Of a DNA stretch of 32,000 nucleotides, positions 25,772 through 32,000 are shown one piece after another (position 1 is the first letter of the stretch; every line of letters starts with the position of its first letter). The position numbers and the translations under genes are program-made. This stretch comes from Halalkalibacterium halodurans (lineage in GTDB: Bacteria; Bacillota; Bacilli; Bacillales; Bacillaceae_D), in assembly GCF_004376175.1 (NCBI RefSeq), contig NZ_SNUY01000018.1, positions 1 to 32,000 of the forward strand. The letters are read 5' to 3'. Under the pieces are notes generated by a model. It had not been told where the DNA came from, ran no database searches, and saw only the letters and a list, made by a program, of their open reading frames with translations.

Positions 25772-26452
25772 TTAAGATGGTTTGAGAATCGTAATGACGT
25801 GCCGAAGAATTTTCGCAGTTAGTCCCCAAATGACATACGATTGATAGTAATAAAAGGATTCGGTGATTTGACGTGTACTTTTTTGATAGGCGCTTTGATT
25901 GGCAATTCGCTCAATGGGAAACCCTGCTCCAGGCTCGAAATGAACATTTATCCGATATTGTTCAGGAGGGTGACTGATAAAATGGTCAATGGGAACCGTG
26001 AAAACGTGGTCTACCTCCGCTTGATTCAATGGATAATCGTTCTTGTGCGGAATAGAGCCTATGACTGGATAAATTATCCCTCTGAATGGTGTGACTAGCA
26101 CATCTAATGAAGTAATCGGTGCGATGACTGACGAAGGAATTCCAAGTTCCTCGCTCGTTTCGCGGATCGCAGCTTCTTCAGGTGAAGCATCCTCAGGATC
26201 AATGCGTCCTCCAGGGAAGCAAATTTCTCCCGGCTGTTGCTTTAACGTGTGTGCCCTTACTTCAAATAAAACATGCACCCCGTCGTCTTTTTCAACAAGG
26301 GGAATGAAGACGGCAGACTTTTTGACGTACTCCTCCCCAAGAATACCAGCATGATAGCTTAACAATTGGGATTTCAGCTGTTGTAGAGAATGCAATACGA
26401 AGTCCTCCTCACGTTTTCCACTAGCAAATCTCTCCTCCTTTGAGTATAACAT
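25772..26452 (-). CDS. Nudix hydrolase, CoA pyrophosphatase type
   Basis: Nudix box GGRIDPEDASPEEAAIRETSEELGI, preceded by VLFEVRAHTLKQQPGEICFPGG (NudL/Nudt7-type signature). The ATG at 26452 has no SD. An in-frame TTG at 26395 has gaggagga 7 nt upstream and may be the true start. Confidence 0.8.
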   Translation of the reverse strand: MLYSKEERFASGKREEDFVLHSLQQLKSQLLSYHAGILGEEYVKKSAVFIPLVEKDDGVHVLFEVRAHTLKQQPGEICFPGGRIDPEDASPEEAAIRETSEELGIPSSVIAPITSLDVLVTPFRGIIYPVIGSIPHKNDYPLNQAEVDHVFTVPIDHFISHPPEQYRINVHFEPGAGFPIERIANQSAYQKSTRQITESFYYYQSYVIWGLTAKILRHVITILKPS

Positions 26453-26578
26453 ACCGTATTTAAGAAAAACTGTGATATTATCTAACGAAAATGCTGAAAC
26501 ATCAAGAGAGGTTGGGTATTCTAGAATCAGGAACGGTCACTGACCTAGCTCCAATTGTTCTCTCTACTCTCCCCCATG

Positions 26579-26611
26579 GACTATCCGCAATCCGCGGATA
26601 GTCATTTTTTT
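26579..26611 (+). terminator. Orphan + strand rho-independent terminator with no annotated gene upstream
   Basis: Perfect 10-bp stem gactatccgc / gcggatagtc, 5-nt loop, then a-ttttttt. Only about 125 nt separate it from the divergent Nudix start. Confidence 0.6.
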
Positions 26612-26625
26612 ACTTTAAGGCGTCA
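26612..26625 (+). repeat. End-motif copy S0 (actttaaggcgtca)
   Basis: Direct repeat of 29940-29955 actttatatggcgtca. The 13 shared bases are identical; the two copies differ by a 2-nt indel and one substitution. Confidence 0.55.
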
Positions 26626-26630
26626 ATTGC

Positions 26631-26653
26631 TCTTTCATTATATCGATTAAACC
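26631..26653 (+). repeat. End-motif copy S1 (tctttcattatatcgattaaacc)
   Basis: The core tcattatatcg (26635-26645) is a perfect 11-bp inverted repeat of 26772-26782, with flanking similarity (..aacc / ggtt..). Confidence 0.65.
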
Positions 26654-26763
26654 ATCCTAATTTTGTAAATGTGTAGCTCGGAAATACATATTGCCTTCAT
26701 CTGAGAGACATAGTGTTTAAGCTGATCTAAATATTCCGAAAGTTGATGCTAATGCCTGGCCGA

Positions 26764-26785
26764 AGGTTGACCGATATAATGACCA
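26764..26785 (-). repeat. End-motif copy S2 (reverse complement ggtcattatatcggtcaacc); candidate left terminal repeat overlapping the promoter
   Basis: Contains cgatataatga (inverted copy of S1) and gatataatgacc (26773-26784), a perfect 12-bp inverted copy of 26881-26892. Begins with TG at 26768. Confidence 0.65.
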
Positions 26786-26795
26786 GAAGTATAAA
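26767..26795 (+). promoter_or_regulatory. Candidate promoter of the transposon operon
   Basis: ttgacc (26767-26772), 17 nt, then tataaa (26790-26795). The -35 box and spacer are covered by end-motif S2, which would allow autoregulation. Confidence 0.5.
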
Positions 26796-26827
26796 ATCTG
26801 GAGAAAGGAAAAGACGTCCCCCATAAA

Positions 26828-26853
26828 TGTGAAACTACGCCAACAGTTTCACA
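26828..26853 (+). promoter_or_regulatory. Perfect 9-bp hairpin covering the GTG start of the first transposon ORF
   Basis: tgtgaaact - acgccaac - agtttcaca. Flanked by two agacgtcc boxes (26812-26819 and 26856-26863), each containing the palindrome gacgtc. Confidence 0.5.
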
Positions 26854-27437
26854 GGAGACGTCCACCCCAAAAAAGATTATGGTCATTATATCAAATTATT
26901 CCTTGGTTGAGAAGCAATCTGGCGTTTTTTGTTAGAAGTACGGAACGAATCCCCTGCCCTTGTTGTGGAGGAACACTTTCAGTGGCAGGAAGCCGGAAAC
27001 GTGCATGGTATAAAAGCAGTGGCGAGCGCTCCAGGCTTGTGATTCGAAGGCTATATTGTGAGGCATGCGATAAGATTCATCATGAACTCCCTGATATTCT
27101 TGTGCCTTATAAAAGGTATGATGCGGAGAGTATAGAAGGTACCGTTTCTACACCACCACGTACAGAGGCAGCGGTGGATGAAGCAACCATCTTTCGATGG
27201 AAGAACTGGTTTCAGGTGTGGGTGGCGTATGCCATCGGCTGCCTCCGGTCTATCGCGATACGTTTTGATCTGCCTGTGGAGGAATTGTCCGAATCTCCAC
27301 AAACCGTACTTCACTCCCTGGGACAATATGTAGGTATGGAGGAGGGATGGCTGAAGAGAGCTGTCCGTTCCATGACAAATTTAAATCTTTGGGTCACAGA
27401 CCCGTTCCGCATTTCTGGCCGGACTGCTCTGGAGTAA
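26829..27437 (+). CDS. Zinc-ribbon protein, DUF6431-like (transposon accessory protein)
   Basis: CPCCGG-x29-CEAC cysteine pairs, then IHHELPDILVPYKRY, which I recall as the DUF6431 signature. First gene of the operon. The GTG start has no convincing SD, so the start is uncertain. Confidence 0.65.
   Translation: MKLRQQFHRRRPPQKRLWSLYQIIPWLRSNLAFFVRSTERIPCPCCGGTLSVAGSRKRAWYKSSGERSRLVIRRLYCEACDKIHHELPDILVPYKRYDAESIEGTVSTPPRTEAAVDEATIFRWKNWFQVWVAYAIGCLRSIAIRFDLPVEELSESPQTVLHSLGQYVGMEEGWLKRAVRSMTNLNLWVTDPFRISGRTALE
26881..26892 (+). repeat. End-motif copy S5 (ggtcattatatc) inside the first ORF
   Basis: Perfect 12-bp inverted repeat of 26773-26784. Its last 10 nt (26883-26892, tcattatatc) are a direct copy of S1 positions 26635-26644. 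Confidence 0.6.
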
Positions 27438-27473
27438 ACTCATGCTATACCAATGAATGGGAGGCATGAGAAG

Positions 27474-28826
27474 ATGAAAAGTCAACGGAAAGCGGAAGAA
27501 ACAGCCGCGGAACGTATGCAGTTAATCTCCCCTCTTTTGGCGGAGGGGTTGGATGCTGGCAAAGCAAGGAAAATCAAGGCTGATATCTGTGAAAGAGCAG
27601 GTGTTTCGGAAAGGACCATCCGCCGGTATCTTTCCCAGTACCGTAACGAAGGGTTCGAAGGCTTAAAGCCGAAGGAAAAAGGAAGAAAACCTGCCAGGAC
27701 AGGGATCCCTCCTGCTTTACTGGAGGAGGCTATCCTTTTGAGGAGGGAGGTTCCGGGGCGGAGTGTCAGCCAGATCATTCAGATTCTTGAGTGGGAAGGA
27801 AAGGCAGAGCCGGGAGAATTAAAAAGGAGTACGCTCCAGGAAAAACTGGCTGAACGGGGCTACAGTTCCCGGCAAATGCGGATGTATACAAGCAGTGGAG
27901 TTGCCGCAAGAAGATTTCAAAGAAGGTACCGGAACAGCCTTTGGCAGTCTGATATCAAGTATGGCCCCTTTCTACCGATTGGTCCCAACGGGACCAATAA
28001 GCAGGTATACCTAGTCTTGTTTATTGATGACGCCACAAGATATGTTCTTCATGGTGAGTGGTATCCCACACTGGATCAGTCCATTGTCGAAGACTGCTTC
28101 CGTAAAGCGATACAAAAGGCGGGACTGCCTGAGGCCGTCTACTTTGATAACGGAAAACAGTACCGGACGAAGTGGATGGGGCGAACCTGTTCTAAACTGG
28201 GTATCCGTTTATTATACGCAAAGCCGTACTCACCTGATTCGAAAGGGAAGGTGGAAAAGTTTAATAGGAACGTTCAGGCCTTTATGGATGAAGCAATGTT
28301 GGAAAAACCGAAAACATTGGATCAGTTTAACCATCTCTTCCAGGCCTGGCTGAGTGAATGTTATCAGAATAAACCCCACTCTGCTTTGGACGCAGCCAGT
28401 CCTGAAGCTGCGTTCCGGTCCGATTCCAAAACGCTTCGTTTCCCTGAGGTGGATGTACTGGCCAATGCCTTTTTGCATTGCGAAGAAAGAAAAGTAGATA
28501 AAGCAGGCTGTATCAGCTTTATGGGCAAGAAATACGAAGTGGGTCTCTTGTTTATTGGCAGGAAGGTACAAGTGGTTTATGACCTGGCGGACATTTCAGA
28601 AGTAACCATTGAATATGAAGGGCATTCTCCGTGGAAAGCAAGAGAACTGGAGATCGGAGAGCGCGCAGGCAAAAGACCAGTTCTGCCGGATCACCTTCTG
28701 ATCCAGGAAACAGACCACTCCCGATTACTACAGGGAGCTGAACAAAAACTGGAAGAACGGAAACAGATTCAAGCCCCTGCCGTCTCCTACCGGAGAGTAA
28801 GGAAGGAGGAAAACGGCTATGTTTGA
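27474..28826 (+). CDS. DDE transposase, Mu/TnsB/TniA-like (HTH + rve core + C-terminal barrel)
   Basis: HTH ICERAGVSERTIRRYLSQY. DDE candidates are D in LWQSDIKY, D in AVYFDNGKQY and E in SKGKVEKFNRN (35 residues after the second D). The C-terminal segment RKVDKAGCISFMGKKYEV...GRKVQVVYD resembles the Mu transposase C-terminal domain. RBS gggagg lies 9 nt before the ATG at 27474 (the track start at 27453 lacks an SD). Confidence 0.85.
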   Translation: MKSQRKAEETAAERMQLISPLLAEGLDAGKARKIKADICERAGVSERTIRRYLSQYRNEGFEGLKPKEKGRKPARTGIPPALLEEAILLRREVPGRSVSQIIQILEWEGKAEPGELKRSTLQEKLAERGYSSRQMRMYTSSGVAARRFQRRYRNSLWQSDIKYGPFLPIGPNGTNKQVYLVLFIDDATRYVLHGEWYPTLDQSIVEDCFRKAIQKAGLPEAVYFDNGKQYRTKWMGRTCSKLGIRLLYAKPYSPDSKGKVEKFNRNVQAFMDEAMLEKPKTLDQFNHLFQAWLSECYQNKPHSALDAASPEAAFRSDSKTLRFPEVDVLANAFLHCEERKVDKAGCISFMGKKYEVGLLFIGRKVQVVYDLADISEVTIEYEGHSPWKARELEIGERAGKRPVLPDHLLIQETDHSRLLQGAEQKLEERKQIQAPAVSYRRVRKEENGYV

Positions 28827-29619
28827 AGCTTTTTATGAATTAACTCATACACCCTTTTCCCGGGCTATTCCAACGGAAGAGCTATATAATTCCTACCTGC
28901 TGGAAGAGACACTGGGCAGATTGGAATACGCTGCGGAACGCCAGCTATTTGGAGTCGTTACAGGGGATTGCGGCACAGGAAAAACAACCACGATTCGTCG
29001 GTTTATGGATGGGCTGGATCCTTCCAAGTTCTCGCTTTTATATATTTCCGATTCGAAGCTGACGCCCAGGAACTTTTACAGAGGCGTTCTTGAACAGCTC
29101 GGCTGCGAATCTAAGTTTTATCGAGGAGATGCGAAGAGGCAGCTCCACAAAGAGATTGAACTGATGCGTGGAATCCATGGTATTCAGCCGATTGTAGTAG
29201 TGGATGAAGCCCATTTACTGGACCGTGAAATGCTTGAAGAGGTTCGGTTCTTATTGAATTTTAAAATGGATGCTCAAAGCCCGATGGCCCTTATACTGGT
29301 CGGCCAAAACGAACTTTGGGACCGCCTGAAGCTCCAGTCTTATTCGGCGATCCGCCAGCGAATTGACTTACAGTGCAAGCTGGTTCATTACGACCGTTCA
29401 GAGACAAAGGAATACATGAAGCGCCATCTGTCCTATTCCGGTGCGAAGCAGGAGATTTTTTCGGATGGGGCAGTAGATTGTATTTATAATTTTTCTAGTG
29501 GTTCCGCCCGGCTGATTAACAAAGTGTGTACCCATAGTCTTTTATACGGGGCACAGAATAAGCGCAGGATTATCGATGATCATATGGTGAAACAGGTGAT
29601 AGAAGGAGAACTATCTTGA
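28819..29619 (+). CDS. AAA+ ATPase, ExeA/TniB/MuB-type transposition helper
   Basis: F..L...PFS N-terminus typical of ExeA-like proteins. Walker A GDCGTGKTT, Walker B VVVDEAHLL. RBS aaggagg. 8-nt overlap with the transposase gene. Confidence 0.85.
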   Translation: MFEAFYELTHTPFSRAIPTEELYNSYLLEETLGRLEYAAERQLFGVVTGDCGTGKTTTIRRFMDGLDPSKFSLLYISDSKLTPRNFYRGVLEQLGCESKFYRGDAKRQLHKEIELMRGIHGIQPIVVVDEAHLLDREMLEEVRFLLNFKMDAQSPMALILVGQNELWDRLKLQSYSAIRQRIDLQCKLVHYDRSETKEYMKRHLSYSGAKQEIFSDGAVDCIYNFSSGSARLINKVCTHSLLYGAQNKRRIIDDHMVKQVIEGELS

Positions 29620-29849
29620 TGTGGGAATGTCGGTTTATCGCCTATTCTAAGCTTATGAAGTGTTGGCTTTTGGTAAAAGGGGAATATGGCCGCTTCCTGT
29701 ATGAGGGAACCCGATTTTATATGCGTTTTGATGAAGGAGTCTTCCTTCCTTGTCAGCTCGAATTCGATAGACAGTGGTATGTGACCATCGGTGATGAGGG
29801 CATACGACTTAATTTGAGAAAGAACGAAGAATACCAAGTTTATATGTAA
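29619..29849 (+). CDS. Small protein, DUF5348-like, 76 aa
   Basis: The start overlaps the ATPase stop (TGATG). RBS aaggag lies upstream. The pattern G.Y.RF......F.....LPC....EF....WY.T.G resembles DUF5348 as I recall it. An alternative TTG start lies at 29616. Confidence 0.55.
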   Translation: MWECRFIAYSKLMKCWLLVKGEYGRFLYEGTRFYMRFDEGVFLPCQLEFDRQWYVTIGDEGIRLNLRKNEEYQVYM

Positions 29850-29855
29850 TTAATA

Positions 29856-29890
29856 GGGAAGCGATGCACAACCAAGCTTCCCTTTCATTT
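29856..29890 (+). terminator. Terminator of the transposon operon
   Basis: Stem gggaagc / gcttccc, 13-nt loop, tail tttcattt. Confidence 0.55.
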
Positions 29891-29903
29891 GGACAAAATA
29901 GGG

Positions 29904-29918
29904 AGCAATATCGGGACA
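29904..29918 (+). repeat. End-motif copy S4 (agcaatatcgggaca)
   Basis: Shares atatcgg and a ..aca tip with the S2 reverse complement (cattatatcggtca). An alternative right terminus would end at CA 29918. Confidence 0.4.
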
Positions 29919-29939
29919 AAGTTTCCCGTCTTCCGCATG

Positions 29940-29955
29940 ACTTTATATGGCGTCA
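29940..29955 (+). repeat. End-motif copy S3 (actttatatggcgtca); candidate right terminal repeat
   Basis: Inverted match to 26768-26785 (13 of 18, one gap) and a direct match to S0 at 26612-26625. Ends in CA. Confidence 0.55.
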
Positions 29956-30006
29956 GTAACAACATAGTAATCATGAGGTTCGTTACAAAAAAGGAGTTGA
30001 ATCAAA

Positions 30007-30675
30007 ATGATCAAGAGAGGATTCGTTGTCCTAGTACTTATGGCGGCTATGTTTTCAAACCCTGCCTTTGTCCAAGCCCAGCAGCAGGCTCATGTCAGAG
30101 TGTTACATGCTTCGCCTGATGCTCCACCAGTAGATGTGTATATTGATGGAAAAAAACAGATGGAGGGCGTGCCATTTAAGCAAACGAGCAGCTATTTCAA
30201 CGTCCCTGCTGGGGATCATATGATCACTATTTTTGCAGCAGGGGATGATCCGGCAGAAACCCCTGTGATTGAAGAAACTTTATTAGTCGAGGCTGGGAAA
30301 AATTACACAGCAGCTGTCGTAGATGAAGTAGATGCGATCCACTTAGTTGTTTTAGAAGATGAACAAGAGGTGAATCGAGGAGGAGCGGCTAAGCTTCGAG
30401 CGGTTCACCTATCTCCAGATACACCAGCTGTTCAACTACACCTCTCAGCAGCCAATGTTGACATGCCATCCCTTTCTTTTGAGAATGCGTCCCGTTATAT
30501 CGATCTACCCGCGGGTGCATATGACCTCGACATTCGAATGATTGAAACGGATGATGTGGCAACAGAGGGGAACAGACTGCAGGTGAAAGAAGGAACAGCA
30601 TACACGGCTATTGTTGTCGGACTTCAACGGGGTGAACCTGAGTTTGAAGTGGTTTTACTTACAGACACTAAATAA
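30007..30675 (+). CDS. Secreted DUF4397-like protein (two repeats)
   Basis: Signal peptide MIKRGFVVLVLMAAMFSNPAFVQA. Two repeats begin VRVLHASPDAPPVDVYIDG and LRAVHLSPDTPAVQLHL. RBS aaggag. Confidence 0.7.
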   Translation: MIKRGFVVLVLMAAMFSNPAFVQAQQQAHVRVLHASPDAPPVDVYIDGKKQMEGVPFKQTSSYFNVPAGDHMITIFAAGDDPAETPVIEETLLVEAGKNYTAAVVDEVDAIHLVVLEDEQEVNRGGAAKLRAVHLSPDTPAVQLHLSAANVDMPSLSFENASRYIDLPAGAYDLDIRMIETDDVATEGNRLQVKEGTAYTAIVVGLQRGEPEFEVVLLTDTK

Positions 30676-30915: not shown

Positions 30916-31131
30916 ATGTTTGAAACGTGGAATAAATATGGGGCAAAAAGTGCGATTGTTTTTGCTGGTGGTATCATTCTGATTGGAATATTTCAGATCA
31001 TGATAAGTATCGATGTAGCTATGTGGGAACGGCTAGGCATTAGCGTTCTCTTTATCCTGATCATTTCAGGCTTTATGTACGGCTATTACAAGCTCATCAC
31101 GTTTCTGGTTAAACATTTATCGAGCAGGTGA
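30916..31131 (+). CDS. Small two-helix membrane protein, 71 aa
   Basis: Two long hydrophobic segments. Weak SD agagagg 13 nt upstream. A strong bidirectional terminator follows. Confidence 0.4.
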   Translation: MFETWNKYGAKSAIVFAGGIILIGIFQIMISIDVAMWERLGISVLFILIISGFMYGYYKLITFLVKHLSSR

Positions 31132-31178
31132 CCTACTGATGGGGGTCTTGATAAAAGAGGGGACGGAATGTACGTAAC

Positions 31179-31217
31179 ATGCAAAAAAGCGGACTCTACT
31201 GATCCGCTTTTTTGCAT
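31179..31217. terminator. Bidirectional rho-independent terminator
   Basis: Perfect palindrome atgcaaaaaagcgga - 9 nt - tccgcttttttgcat. This gives a U-tract on both strands between the convergent genes. Confidence 0.85.
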
Positions 31218-31221
31218 ACTT

Positions 31222-32000
31222 TTATCCAACTTGACGTTCTTCAGACGTGTCTTCATCCCAGCATTCCGTGTTTTCAATGCCTAATTTGGATGGAGAGAAT
31301 GTCGGATCGAGTCCTTGTTTACGCTGAGTCTCATAGTCTTTTAATACCTTGAAGGCCACCCGTCCTAAAAGGGCGATACCTACGAGGTTAATAACGGTCA
31401 TCAAAGCCATGAAGACGTCGGCTAAATCCCACACAAGGCCGAGGCTTGCATTGGCGCCAAACATGACAAGACCCATCGTAGCAAGACGATAAAATAAAAC
31501 CCCAGTTTGACTCTTTTTAATAAATTCAATATTCGTTTCCCCATAGTAATAGCTTCCGATAATGGAGCTAAAGGCAAATAGGAAGATCGCGATCGCGACA
31601 AAAATGGACGCCCATGGACCAATATGAGAACTTAAAGAATCTTGCAAGAGTGTAATTCCGGCAGCTTCAGTAGATGTGCCAAACCCTTCAGCCATAATGA
31701 TAATAAAGGCAGTTGCCGTACAAACAATCAACGTGTCAACAAATACTCCGAGAGTTTGAATAAATCCTTGCTTCGCTGGATGTGTAACGTCAGCTACAGC
31801 AGCAGCGTTTGGTGCACTACCCATCCCTGCTTCATTGGAAAATAGGCCACGGCGCACCCCTTGCATGATGGCAGCCCCAATTCCTCCACCGATCGCCTGC
31901 TCTAATCCAAAAGCGCTTTGAATAATTAAAGAAATGGCAGCAGGAACTTGAGAGATGTTCATGATGACCACAATAGCGGCGATTGTAATATATAACAGAG
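31222..32000 (-). CDS. Alanine/glycine:cation symporter (AGCS family), C-terminal part; the gene continues beyond the window
   Basis: GLFSNEAGMGSAPNAAA motif and several hydrophobic helices. The reading frame is open to the window edge, so the ATG at 31971 is internal. Confidence 0.85.
   Translation of the reverse strand, partial: LLYITIAAIVVIMNISQVPAAISLIIQSAFGLEQAIGGGIGAAIMQGVRRGLFSNEAGMGSAPNAAAVADVTHPAKQGFIQTLGVFVDTLIVCTATAFIIIMAEGFGTSTEAAGITLLQDSLSSHIGPWASIFVAIAIFLFAFSSIIGSYYYGETNIEFIKKSQTGVLFYRLATMGLVMFGANASLGLVWDLADVFMALMTVINLVGIALLGRVAFKVLKDYETQRKQGLDPTFSPSKLGIENTECWDEDTSEERQVG

What the first reader, a model, noticed from the sequence alone, without database searches (positions are those of the whole stretch)
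26612..29955. Compact four-gene Mu/Tn552-type transposon with two uncharacterised accessory genes and no resolvase or TnsA
Seen in sequence:
- Four same-strand ORFs run from a promoter-like site (26767-26795) to a terminator (29856-29890). The overlaps are 8 nt (transposase/ATPase) and 1 nt (ATPase/small ORF, TGATG).
- The transposase has an HTH, a DDE core and a Mu-like C-terminal segment.
- The ATPase has Walker A GDCGTGKTT and Walker B VVVDEAHLL, with an ExeA/TniB-like N-terminus.
- AGA/AGG/CGG arginine codons are common here, whereas the flanking housekeeping genes use CGN almost exclusively.
- The block sits where the yrr synteny ends.
Established knowledge: a DDE transposase paired with an AAA+ regulator defines Mu (A/B), Tn552 (p480/p271), Tn5053 (TniA/TniB) and Tn7 (TnsB/TnsC). 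Those elements also carry a resolvase (BinL, TniR), a second nuclease (TnsA), or a target selector (TniQ/TnsD).
Inference: none of those extra functions is recognisable here. In their place there is a zinc-ribbon DUF6431-like protein upstream and a DUF5348-like protein downstream. The module may therefore be an undescribed minimal variant of this superfamily, in which the two small proteins handle target choice, regulation or cointegrate processing.
Basis: partly seen in the sequence, partly recalled or inferred. Interest (0 to 1): 0.75.

Follow-up and report, generated by a model that had tools for sequence, protein, structure and literature searches.

The report
Compact Mu-like insertion sequence, unnamed family
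This is a complete, recently inserted 3.2-kb jumping gene of a widespread but unnamed family in Gram-positive bacteria, built from a Mu/IS21-type transposase, its ATPase helper and a zinc-ribbon protein, with an interchangeable fourth small gene and a conserved hairpin that looks like an antisense RNA brake.

Summary
Four co-oriented, overlapping genes (DUF6431, DDE transposase with a Mu C-terminal barrel, AAA_22 ATPase, DUF5348-like) form a discrete mobile element. Its true limits are 26714-29961 (3,248 bp), with 5'-TGT...ACA-3' termini and a perfect 6-bp duplication, ACATAG. Seven other Halalkalibacterium halodurans assemblies, including C-125, have the empty site.

The element belongs to a large multi-copy family in Bacillota, with relatives in Actinomycetota. 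Each end has three ~25-bp repeats. The left end has a promoter inside those repeats. A strongly covarying hairpin with its own promoter and U-tract on the opposite strand looks like an antisense RNA.

The "four-gene" reading is only partly right. DUF6431 is the near-constant third partner. The fourth slot holds at least four unrelated small proteins or nothing, and elements without it (Tumebacillus, at least 13 copies, six identical) are clearly active.

No resolvase, TnsA or TniQ is present. All ISfinder-derived NCBIfam models score below cut-off, and I found no published description beyond "repetitive gene cassette". I could not query ISfinder or TnCentral.

Verdict: a new variant of a known kind, namely DDE plus AAA+ transposons. 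The roles of the small proteins are inferred, not shown.

The parts
26708..26713 (.). Left copy of the 6-bp target-site duplication (ACATAG)
   Evidence: It is identical to 29962-29967. The empty sites in C-125 and six other assemblies carry one ACATAG.
26714..26785 (+). Left end. It starts at the terminus 5'-TGTTTAAGC and holds three ~25-bp repeat units: L1 26714-26738, L2 core 26743-26761 and L3 core 26767-26784. These are presumed transposase-binding sites.
   Evidence: Seventeen bounded elements aligned in register give a unit consensus of about TTGACGG-N8-TGTCC, three per end, inverted between the two ends. That the transposase binds them is an inference.
26752..26780 (+). Operon promoter inside L2/L3: -35 ATGCCT (family consensus TTGCCT), a 17-nt spacer, and -10 TATAAT (26775-26780)
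   Evidence: TTGCCT-17-TATAAT is conserved in the left ends but not in the right ends of family members. That it is functional is an inference.
26800..26893 (-). Candidate antisense RNA gene: extended -10 TGATATAAT (complement of 26885-26893), hairpin (26813-26862) and U-tract (complement of 26800-26812). The predicted RNA is about 80 nt and lies opposite the operon's 5' leader.
   Evidence: RNAalifold finds 15 pairs, 14 of them with compensatory changes. 87.7% of cells pair, against 71.8% in shuffles (0/500) and 29-43% when partners are slid. The minus strand has 33 G-U pairs against 9 and a mean MFE of -25.5 against -21.4 kcal/mol. An extended -10 is present in 43 of 49 elements. The window fold is -31.6 kcal/mol, z -5.1. 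Rfam has no match. Transcription has not been shown.
26879..26935 (+). Conserved short upstream ORF (MVIISNYSLVEKQSGVFC in the window) that overlaps the start of gene 1 in another frame
   Evidence: The ATG and the peptide pattern M-V/I-I-V/I-S-D/N-Y recur across the family. Its function is unknown, and the conservation may come from the overlapping antisense promoter.
26907..27437 (+). Gene 1: a DUF6431 protein with a zinc ribbon followed by a helical, HTH-like part. It is 176 aa from TTG 26907. The longest ORF, from GTG 26829, gives 202 aa.
   Evidence: Pfam DUF6431 scores 7.8e-29. The motif IRRLxCxxCxxIHHELPDxLVPYKRY is invariant. dN/dS is 0.17, and the frame is closed upstream of the TTG in relatives. 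Weak hits are to zinc ribbons of recombinases and transposases only. Distant homologues show HTH_23 and sigma-70 region 4 hints.
27453..28826 (+). DDE transposase: HTH, RNase-H-like core with D167/D232/E268, and a Mu-type C-terminal beta-barrel. The likely start is ATG 27474 (450 aa).
   Evidence: Pfam finds rve, HTH_28 and Mu-transpos_C. The PHROG Mu-type transposase family scores 5.8e-53. NCBIfam IS481 scores 186 bits, below its 224 cut-off. The best PDB sequence hit is the IS21-family IstA. dN/dS is 0.06.
28819..29619 (+). AAA+ ATPase of MuB/TniB/ExeA type, with Walker A at 28963-28989 and Walker B at 29194-29220. It overlaps the transposase gene by 8 nt.
   Evidence: AAA_22 scores 1.8e-24 and TniB 1e-4. 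TIGR03015 (ExeA-like) scores 161 bits, below cut-off. The PHROG 'DNA transposition protein' family scores 1.8e-23. MuB is the only PDB sequence hit. dN/dS is 0.02.
29616..29849 (+). Gene 4: a DUF5348-like, all-beta protein of 77 aa whose start overlaps the ATPase stop codon. It occupies a variable accessory slot.
   Evidence: The AlphaFold model has pLDDT 88.6 and pTM 0.75, with eight strands. The best fold match is 3NRL, a R. gnavus protein of unknown function, at TM 0.71/0.78, followed by tandem-Tudor-like folds. dN/dS is 0.10. The slot is variable or empty in relatives.
29855..29890 (+). Terminator-like hairpin at the end of the operon
   Evidence: An 8-bp G+C-rich stem followed by a T-rich tail folds at -13 kcal/mol, z -2.9. 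Similar hairpins occur in other four-gene members.
29891..29961 (-). Right end, with three repeat units (R3 29891-29908, R2 29914-29932, R1 29937-29961) and the terminus ...GTCAGTAACA-3'
   Evidence: It has the same three-unit register as the left end and as the other family members. The stand-alone contig L092 stops exactly at 29961.
29962..29967 (.). Right copy of the 6-bp target-site duplication (ACATAG)

Best explanation
Window 26714-29961 is an intact, autonomous, cargo-free transposable element, in effect a 3.2-kb insertion sequence. It belongs to a distinct family whose core is three genes in one operon: a DUF6431 zinc-ribbon/HTH protein, a MuA/TnsB/IstA-type DDE transposase, and a MuB/TniB/ExeA-type AAA+ ATPase.

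Shown:
- It inserted precisely into an intergenic site of one H. halodurans lineage and duplicated 6 bp.
- Relatives are multi-copy and recently active.
- Each end carries three phased repeats.
- All four genes are under purifying selection.
- The fourth gene is dispensable and exchangeable.

Inferred mechanism:
- The transposase binds the three sites at each end and pairs the ends.
- The ATPase coats target DNA and activates strand transfer with a 6-bp stagger at weakly symmetric N-Y-N-N-R-N sites, as MuB, TnsC and IstB do for their transposases.
- With neither a 5'-strand nuclease (TnsA) nor a resolvase, the element probably moves by a replicative route. This could be copy-out/paste-in, as proposed for IS21, or Mu-like nick-join with host repair and recombination.
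- Expression is held down in two ways. The operon promoter lies inside left-end binding sites L2/L3, giving autorepression by the transposase. A roughly 80-nt antisense RNA pairs with the mRNA leader, in the manner of IS10 RNA-OUT.
- DUF6431 is most likely a DNA-binding accessory subunit or regulator of the transpososome.
- The small proteins of the fourth slot, translationally coupled to the ATPase, are most likely optional modulators or adaptors of the ATPase.
For: Boundaries and mobility:
- Duplication and termini.
- Empty site in seven assemblies, with flanks 99.2-99.6% identical.
- L092, a collapsed repeat contig, is 100% identical and ends at 29961.
- Four accessions of the same gene 1 protein in one strain.
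- 152 relatives in genomes.
- Tumebacillus copies with distinct 6-bp duplications, six of them 100% identical.
- 23 bounded insertions in 15 genomes.
- 15 copies in Clostridium sp. JS66 (bioRxiv 10.64898/2026.08.16.744336).

Protein identities.

End repeats and promoter.

Antisense hairpin.

Selection.

Variable fourth slot.

Deep linkage of DUF6431.

Role of AAA+ helpers and the beta-barrel next to the DDE core in IstA, MuA and TnsB: PMC11208146.

Subterminal repeat arrays as a hallmark of Tn7, Tn5053 and Tn552: PMC8649781.
Against: - No experiment or transcript data support any mechanistic step.
- The gene 1 model is weak (pLDDT 59.6), has no significant fold match, and gives no PDB profile hit. 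Its role is a guess from zinc-ribbon and HTH hints.
- The window's -35 box (ATGCCT) is poorer than the family consensus.
- The hairpin also folds on the sense strand (z -4.5), so a leader structure in the mRNA cannot be excluded. The strand call rests mainly on 33 against 9 wobble pairs.
- The replicative route is deduced only from missing genes.
- ISfinder and TnCentral could not be searched, so the family may already carry a name there.
Confidence: 0.8

Rival explanations
1. One reading: an obligate four-gene module in which both small proteins (DUF6431 and DUF5348) are needed, replacing the resolvase, TnsA or TniQ in target choice or cointegrate processing.
For: All four genes are intact, overlapping and under purifying selection here. 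The same four-gene order occurs in Alicyclobacillus, Neobacillus, Mesobacillus and others.
Against: Three-gene elements of about 3.0 kb, with only about 100 bp after the ATPase, have perfect duplications in six or more genera. They multiply in Tumebacillus, with at least 13 copies, six of them identical. The slot holds unrelated proteins in other lineages. The JS66 cassette has three genes.
Confidence: 0.08
2. It is an ordinary member of an already curated family, for example an IS481-family or ISNCY entry in ISfinder, or a Tn552-family entry in TnCentral, so nothing here is new.
For: The best IS-family model is IS481, at 186 bits and E 1e-54 over residues 42-318. TGT...ACA termini and short duplications are typical of IS481/IS3-like elements (my own knowledge). 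Pfam already holds DUF6431 and DUF5348. RefSeq annotates the genes routinely.
Against: Every ISfinder-derived NCBIfam model is below its cut-off: IS481 186<224, ISNCY 95<250, IS3 79<160, IS21 60<160. RefSeq names the transposases only 'DDE-type integrase/transposase/recombinase'. The open literature has only two mentions of DUF6431, and neither classifies the element. IS481 members have no ATPase partner or Mu-type barrel, to my knowledge.
Confidence: 0.2
3. DUF6431 is a second nuclease (an HNH-like beta-beta-alpha-metal finger built on CxxCxxxHH) that cuts the non-transferred strand. It would make this a cut-and-paste element and a functional replacement for TnsA.
For: CxxC-x3-HHELP is invariant and lies on a predicted strand-strand-helix segment. 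The element lacks both TnsA and a resolvase.
Against: No HNH family appears even at E<=10 in any of 33 members; only zinc ribbons do. There is no PDB profile hit and no nuclease among the fold matches. Distant homologues show HTH hints instead. The model is of low confidence.
Confidence: 0.05
4. The covarying hairpin acts in the sense mRNA, as a leader structure controlling translation of gene 1 or the upstream ORF, or as a DNA cruciform or protein-binding site. It would not be an antisense RNA.
For: The hairpin also folds on the plus strand (z -4.5), with 87.7% of cells paired. The longest gene 1 ORF start (GTG 26829) and the upstream ORF lie in or next to it.
Against: The minus strand pairs better: 92.8% against 87.7%, with 33 against 9 G-U pairs. 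It has a conserved extended -10 box upstream and a U-tract directly downstream of the hairpin. That is the anatomy of a promoter-hairpin-terminator RNA gene.
Confidence: 0.2

Closest known systems
IS21 family (IstA transposase plus IstB AAA+ helper)
   Same: Both are compact and cargo-free. Both pair a DDE transposase (HTH, RNase H core, beta-barrel) with an overlapping downstream AAA+ gene. Both have several subterminal repeats and TG...CA-type termini. Neither has a resolvase or TnsA. IstA is the best PDB sequence hit. The helper's role is as in PMC11208146.
   Different: The ATPase is of AAA_22/MuB/ExeA type, not DnaC-like IstB, and there is no IstB_IS21 hit. The IS21 model scores 60 bits against a cut-off of 160. 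This element has an extra upstream DUF6431 gene, an optional fourth gene and a candidate antisense RNA.
Tn552 (p480 transposase, p271 ATPase, BinL resolvase) of Staphylococcus
   Same: Both come from Gram-positive hosts. Both pair a Mu-C-terminal-domain DDE transposase with an overlapping ATPase gene. Both have repeat arrays at the ends (PMC8649781). Tn552 makes a 6-7 bp duplication (my own knowledge).
   Different: Transposase identity is only 22-24% over the core, at E about 1e-6. Tn552 has a serine resolvase upstream of the transposase and carries bla cargo. Here DUF6431 sits in that position and there is no cargo.
Phage Mu A/B
   Same: The best PHROG families are the Mu-type transposase (5.8e-53) and the 'DNA transposition protein' (1.8e-23). 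MuB is the only PDB sequence hit for the ATPase. Both have three transposase sites per end (my own knowledge for Mu).
   Different: This is not a phage: 3.2 kb with no structural genes. It makes a 6-bp rather than a 5-bp duplication (Mu's value is from my own knowledge). It has no enhancer or repressor module of Mu type.
Tn7-like / Tn5053 (TnsB/TniA, TnsC/TniB, TniQ/TnsD, with or without TnsA or a resolvase)
   Same: Both combine a DDE transposase, an AAA+ regulator and a third zinc-finger-containing DNA-binding protein. Both have arrays of roughly 20-25 bp subterminal repeats (PMC8649781).
   Different: No TniQ or TnsA domain is detectable. The third gene lies upstream rather than downstream. 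There is no resolvase, although lineages without TnsA typically have one. There is no cargo and no site-specific target. TniB scores just under its cut-off.
IS10 RNA-OUT and other IS antisense RNAs
   Same: Both have a short, stable stem-loop RNA transcribed from just inside the element, opposite the 5' end of the transposition-gene mRNA (my own knowledge for IS10).
   Different: There is no sequence or Rfam relationship. The element family and host are different. Here the RNA is only predicted.

Membership tests
Pfam DUF6431 (gene 1) | Score above the curated gathering threshold of PF20020 | tested here: met
   99.8 bits against a cut-off of 26.6, covering the full 82-position profile. All 33 aligned homologues match.
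Pfam DUF5348 (gene 4) | Score above the gathering threshold of PF17295 | tested here: inconclusive
   The window protein scores 18.5 bits against a cut-off of 22.8. However, 21 of 22 database proteins found with a profile that includes it carry PF17295. Its model also superposes on 3NRL at TM 0.71/0.78.
IS481 family | Transposase reaches the NCBIfam NF033577 cut-off | tested here: not met
   186.1 bits against a cut-off of 224.
IS481 family | Single-gene IS of about 1-1.3 kb without an ATPase partner (my own knowledge of the family) | tested here: not met
   The element is 3,248 bp with an obligatorily linked AAA+ gene and a DUF6431 gene.
IS21 family | IstA-type transposase reaching the NF033546 cut-off | tested here: not met
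   59.7 bits against a cut-off of 160.
IS21 family | IstB (DnaC-like, PF01695) helper ATPase | tested here: not met
   No IstB_IS21 hit at E<=0.01. The ATPase is AAA_22/TniB/ExeA-like.
Tn552 family | Close homology of the transposase to p480 | tested here: not met
   22-24% identity over residues 161-456, at E about 1e-6.
Tn552 family | Serine resolvase (BinL) and a res site within the element | tested here: not met
   None of the four proteins has a Resolvase domain, and the element has no room for another gene. pN315 shows the resolvase upstream of p480.
Tn7-like transposons | TnsB-type transposase, TnsC-type ATPase and subterminal arrays of binding sites | tested here: inconclusive
   The arrays are present, at 3+3. 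The DDE transposase has a Mu-type barrel, and the AAA+ protein has a sub-threshold TniB hit. No phylogeny against TnsB was made.
Tn7-like transposons | TniQ/TnsD target selector | tested here: not met
   No TniQ hit for gene 1 or for any of 33 homologues, even at E<=10. Insertion sites show no specific target.
Tn7-like transposons | TnsA endonuclease, or a resolvase in lineages that lack it | tested here: not met
   Neither is present. The expectation comes from PMC8649781.
Transposable phage Mu | MuA/MuB-like pair inside a phage genome | tested here: not met
   The pair matches Mu-type PHROGs, but the element is 3.2 kb, precisely bounded and has no phage genes.
The family described here (DUF6431 - DDE - AAA+ insertion sequences) | Gene order DUF6431, DDE transposase, AAA_22 ATPase; TGT...ACA termini; three ~25-bp units per end; 6-bp duplication | tested here: met
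   The window element meets all of these. So do 16 other bounded elements from 14 genomes.

The most novel reading that the evidence does not exclude
The DUF6431-DDE-AAA+ trio may be a self-contained, minimal relative of Mu and Tn7. In it, DUF6431 would be a new class of third subunit, acting as a transpososome or target cofactor that makes a resolvase or TnsA unnecessary. The exchangeable small proteins fused by translational coupling to the ATPase gene would be plug-in adaptors that retune target choice or host-factor use. This would be a small-scale analogue of the modular target selectors of Tn7-like elements, packed into 3 kb and governed by a new antisense RNA.
Probability: 0.2. Interest if true: 0.75.

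Novelty: new variant of a known kind. Interest (0 to 1): 0.5.

Why it matters
DDE transposases that need an AAA+ partner (Mu, Tn7 and CRISPR-associated transposons, IS21, Tn552, Tn5053) are the best-studied models of regulated target choice, and they are the basis of programmable DNA-insertion tools. This family would add several things:
- A very compact, abundant and evidently active member of that group. DUF6431 alone has 1,624 clusters at 50% identity.
- A different third subunit.
- No second nuclease and no resolvase.
- A natural "swap slot" next to the ATPase gene.
- A predicted antisense RNA brake.

It offers a simple system for asking what the minimal requirements of ATPase-coupled transposition are, and how such elements resolve or avoid cointegrates.

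Practically, these elements are mis-annotated as scattered hypothetical genes. They cause assembly breaks, seen as the many 3.0-3.3 kb orphan contigs. They also mediate large deletions, such as the 63-kb loss in Clostridium sp. JS66. Naming and delimiting them would improve genome annotation in Bacillota.

Tried and rejected
- A generic inverted-repeat search on the window alone did not reveal the ends. They became visible only through multi-copy relatives.
- A megablast of the block against plasmids found nothing.
- Exact-protein look-ups for the window transposase and for P0001 found nothing, because of differences in start-codon calls.
- The word-indexed search with gene 4 alone found one protein. 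It needed a profile built from locus-derived sequences.
- The fold search with the gene 1 model gave no meaningful match. The best was TM 0.19, to the zinc-ribbon/coiled-coil of a large serine integrase.
- The gene 1 profile had zero hits against PDB sequences.
- My idea that DUF6431 is an HNH-like nuclease found no support, and I keep it only as a low-probability rival.
- A TniQ relationship was not detectable.
- PADLOC shows no defence-system relationship for any small protein.
- I considered programmed frameshifting between the conserved upstream ORF and gene 1, which would need a +1 shift at the T-run. I dropped it because the ORF's stop is not conserved in all members, and because relatives have an in-frame TTG start right after a stop codon.
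- Literature searches combining Tn552, TniB, TnsC, MuB, ExeA, AAA_22 and Mu-transpos_C returned nothing that describes this element.
- tblastn with gene 1 is too insensitive to reach the actinobacterial homologues.
- The first dN/dS script timed out.

Full report
**1. The observation**

The four same-strand ORFs are real:
- Gene 1 (DUF6431): 26829 (longest ORF) or 26907 to 27437.
- Transposase: 27453 or 27474 to 28826.
- ATPase: 28819 to 29619.
- Gene 4: 29616 to 29849.

- DUF6431 at 7.8e-29.
- rve, HTH_28 and Mu-transpos_C for the transposase.
- AAA_22 at 1.8e-24, with TniB a hair under its cut-off.
- A sub-threshold DUF5348 hit (E 0.002).

The catalytic triad is D167/D232/E268, and the Walker motifs lie where stated. 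AGA/AGG make up 41% of arginine codons in the element against 14% in 11 flanking ORFs. G+C is 46.9% against 44.3%.

**2. True limits, and proof that it is a mobile element**

Neither the window alone nor plasmid megablast showed the ends. A genome-wide search with the transposase found 152 relatives, and 80 loci were kept, at 54-77% identity.

Tumebacillus avium carries at least 13 copies. Six are 100% identical over 3,017 bp. All start with TGTTAC and end with GTAACA, and each is flanked by a different 6-bp direct repeat, apart from one 5-bp case.

By homology the window element is 26714-29961 (3,248 bp). It reads 5'-TGTTTAAGC...GTCAGTAACA-3' and is flanked by ACATAG on both sides.

Gene 1's closest database relative is from Halalkalibacterium halodurans. 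Seven H. halodurans assemblies, including C-125 (BA000004.3), have the two flanking genes adjacent. They read ...GAGAGACATAGTAATCATG... with a single ACATAG, and their flanks are 99.2-99.6% identical to the window. This is a precise, strain-specific insertion.

Two further observations show several copies within the species:
- Another assembly has a 3,067-bp stand-alone contig that is 100% identical and ends exactly at 29961.
- One strain has four accessions of the same gene 1 protein.

**3. The family**

Bounded elements with perfect 6-bp duplications fall into two size classes:
- About 3.0 kb, with only about 100 bp after the ATPase: Tumebacillus, Planococcus, Aneurinibacillus and others.
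- 3.25-3.34 kb, with a fourth gene: the window, Neobacillus, Mesobacillus, Desulfosporosinus, Desulfitobacterium and Camelliibacillus.

Many draft genomes have orphan contigs of 3.0-3.3 kb, the signature of collapsed repeats.

DUF6431 is found wherever upstream sequence is available. The same layout recurs at about 30% transposase identity in Metabacillus and Streptomyces. Mycobacterium and Rhodococcus relatives have an upstream protein of about 200 aa with sub-threshold DUF6431 hits plus weak HTH hits. At 25% identity, a Novosphingobium relative has a serine resolvase there instead, as Tn552 does.

The DUF6431 profile finds 1,624 clusters at 50% identity, and the top 150 are all stand-alone small proteins.

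**4. The fourth gene is a variable slot**

In nearly all elements, the ORF after the ATPase starts on the ATPase stop codon. Its product, however, belongs to at least four unrelated families, or the ORF is absent:
- DUF5348-like, 73-81 aa, as in the window.
- An 80-92 aa 'GFYDLLP...QYPPTRNRTAWF' family.
- A 106-108 aa 'FHCSYQWD...GCHLSTL' family.
- Several singletons.

None of the alternatives reaches a Pfam cut-off or matches PADLOC.

The window's protein is real. It aligns with 19 relatives and has dN/dS of 0.10. Its model is confident, at pLDDT 88.6, and shows eight strands. The model superposes on 3NRL, an uncharacterised R. gnavus protein (TM 0.71/0.78), and more loosely on tandem Tudor domains.

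Because elements without it are demonstrably active, it cannot be required for transposition.

**5. Gene 1**

The conserved core starts at FFVRS. It includes a Cys-rich ribbon and the invariant IRRLxCxxCxxIHHELPDxLVPYKRY motif. dN/dS is 0.17.

Structure and profile searches were uninformative:
- The AlphaFold model is mediocre, at pLDDT 59.6.
- There is no significant fold match.
- There is no PDB profile hit.

Weak Pfam hits across 33 members are all zinc ribbons, several of them from recombinases and transposases. None is to HNH or TniQ. Together with the HTH hints in distant homologues, the best reading is a zinc-ribbon plus HTH DNA-binding protein.

In many relatives the frame is closed just upstream of a conserved TGATTG. 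The window's start is therefore most likely TTG 26907, giving 176 aa.

**6. Ends and regulation**

Seventeen bounded elements align in register. Each end has three units of about 25 bp, with a consensus of about TTGACGG-N8-TGTCC, and the outermost unit begins with TGTT. Such arrays are a hallmark of Tn7, Tn5053 and Tn552 (PMC8649781).

Only the left end additionally conserves TTGCCT-17 nt-TATAAT across units 2 and 3. In the window this is 26752-26757 and 26775-26780. It places a sigma-A-type promoter inside the presumed transposase sites.

Downstream lies a long hairpin (26813-26862) with strong covariation:
- 15 pairs, 14 of them with compensatory changes.
- 87.7% of cells paired, against 71.8% in shuffles (0/500) and 29-43% for slid partners.
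- 91 double-change cells, against 30 expected.

The hairpin pairs better on the minus strand, with 33 G-U pairs against 9 and a mean MFE of -25.5 against -21.4 kcal/mol. On that strand it is preceded by a conserved extended -10 box, present in 43 of 49 elements, and directly followed by a conserved U-tract. In the window the minus-strand fold is -31.6 kcal/mol, with z -5.1.

This is the anatomy of a small antisense RNA opposite the operon leader. Rfam has no match. Transcription has not been shown.

**7. Target choice**

Twenty-three insertion sites show only a symmetric N-Y-N-N-R-N preference. Position 2 is a pyrimidine in 22 of 23 sites, and position 5 is a purine in 21 of 23. The flanks are A+T-rich, at 64%. 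Nothing suggests a specific attachment site.

**8. Comparison with known systems**

The transposase and ATPase match Mu-type PHROGs (5.8e-53 and 1.8e-23). The best PDB sequence hits are IS21 IstA and MuB.

All ISfinder-derived NCBIfam models are below their cut-offs; IS481 is the best, at 186 against 224 bits. Tn552's transposase is only 22-24% identical.

There is no IstB-type ATPase, no resolvase, no TnsA and no TniQ. RefSeq calls the transposases only 'DDE-type integrase/transposase/recombinase'.

The open literature mentions DUF6431 twice:
- Once in a gene table.
- Once as a 15-copy 'repetitive gene cassette' flanking a 63-kb deletion in Clostridium sp. JS66. The element is not classified there.

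I could not query ISfinder or TnCentral.

**9. Verdict**

The element is a well-defined, active insertion sequence of a distinct DUF6431-DDE-AAA+ family. It works like Mu, IS21 and Tn552 in pairing a DDE transposase with an AAA+ target activator (inference, guided by PMC11208146). It fails the membership tests of each named family.

The roles of DUF6431, of the slot proteins and of the antisense hairpin are inferences that need experiments.

Noticed in passing
window 26800-26893 (minus strand): A candidate antisense RNA of about 80 nt: an extended -10 box, a strongly covarying hairpin and a U-tract, conserved across the family. Rfam has no match.
   Followed up: yes
window 26879-26935: A conserved 18-19 codon upstream ORF (M-V/I-I-V/I-S-D/N-Y-x-L-I/V-E...) overlaps the likely TTG start of gene 1 in another frame. 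No Shine-Dalgarno sequence is evident for either. The conservation may simply reflect the overlapping antisense promoter.
   Followed up: partly
window 26579-26603 (plus strand), host intergenic region left of the element: A strong terminator-like hairpin (10 pairs followed by a T-run) lies downstream of nothing obvious on the plus strand. The neighbouring NUDIX gene is on the minus strand. The hairpin is also present in empty-site strains. Rfam has no hit for 26300-30100.
   Followed up: partly
window 29962-30006: The element sits only 45 bp upstream of the DUF4397 gene start (30007). It therefore separates that gene from its native upstream region. The possible effect on its expression was not examined.
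   Followed up: no
L092 (GCA_036219485.1) versus window 29145-29250: The otherwise 100% identical stand-alone contig lacks 106 bp inside the ATPase gene, which splits it into two ORFs. This is either a deletion variant among the copies or an assembly artefact.
   Followed up: no
L074 7095-9593 (Tumebacillus avium CP021434): One Tumebacillus copy is interrupted inside the transposase gene by about 2.5 kb of foreign DNA, probably a nested insertion of another element.
   Followed up: no
L034, L044, L066, L082: Contigs carrying 63-68% identical elements sit in MAGs or genomes labelled Saccharibacteria, Bacteroidetes, Coxiellaceae and Salinimicrobium. This is probably binning contamination by Bacillota DNA, though horizontal transfer was not excluded.
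   Followed up: no
L094 4338-4616 (Streptomyces chartreusis plasmid): In the actinobacterial relative, an extra 92-aa ORF lies between the transposase and ATPase genes, and a 120-aa ORF follows the ATPase. Neither has a Pfam match. Small accessory slots therefore exist at more than one position in the wider family.
   Followed up: partly
L086, L088, L090 versus window about 31000-32000 and beyond: Downstream of the shared region, the H. halodurans strains differ. L088 has an IS4/IS5-type transposase gene (DDE_Tnp_1, DUF772) and L090 has phage-like Bro-N/ANT genes. This neighbourhood is a hotspot of strain variation.
   Followed up: no
bioRxiv 10.64898/2026.08.16.744336 (Clostridium sp. JS66): A 63.1-kb deletion selected during laboratory evolution is bounded by two copies of the three-gene form of this element. 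The authors attribute it to homologous recombination. Intramolecular replicative transposition would leave the same product.
   Followed up: no
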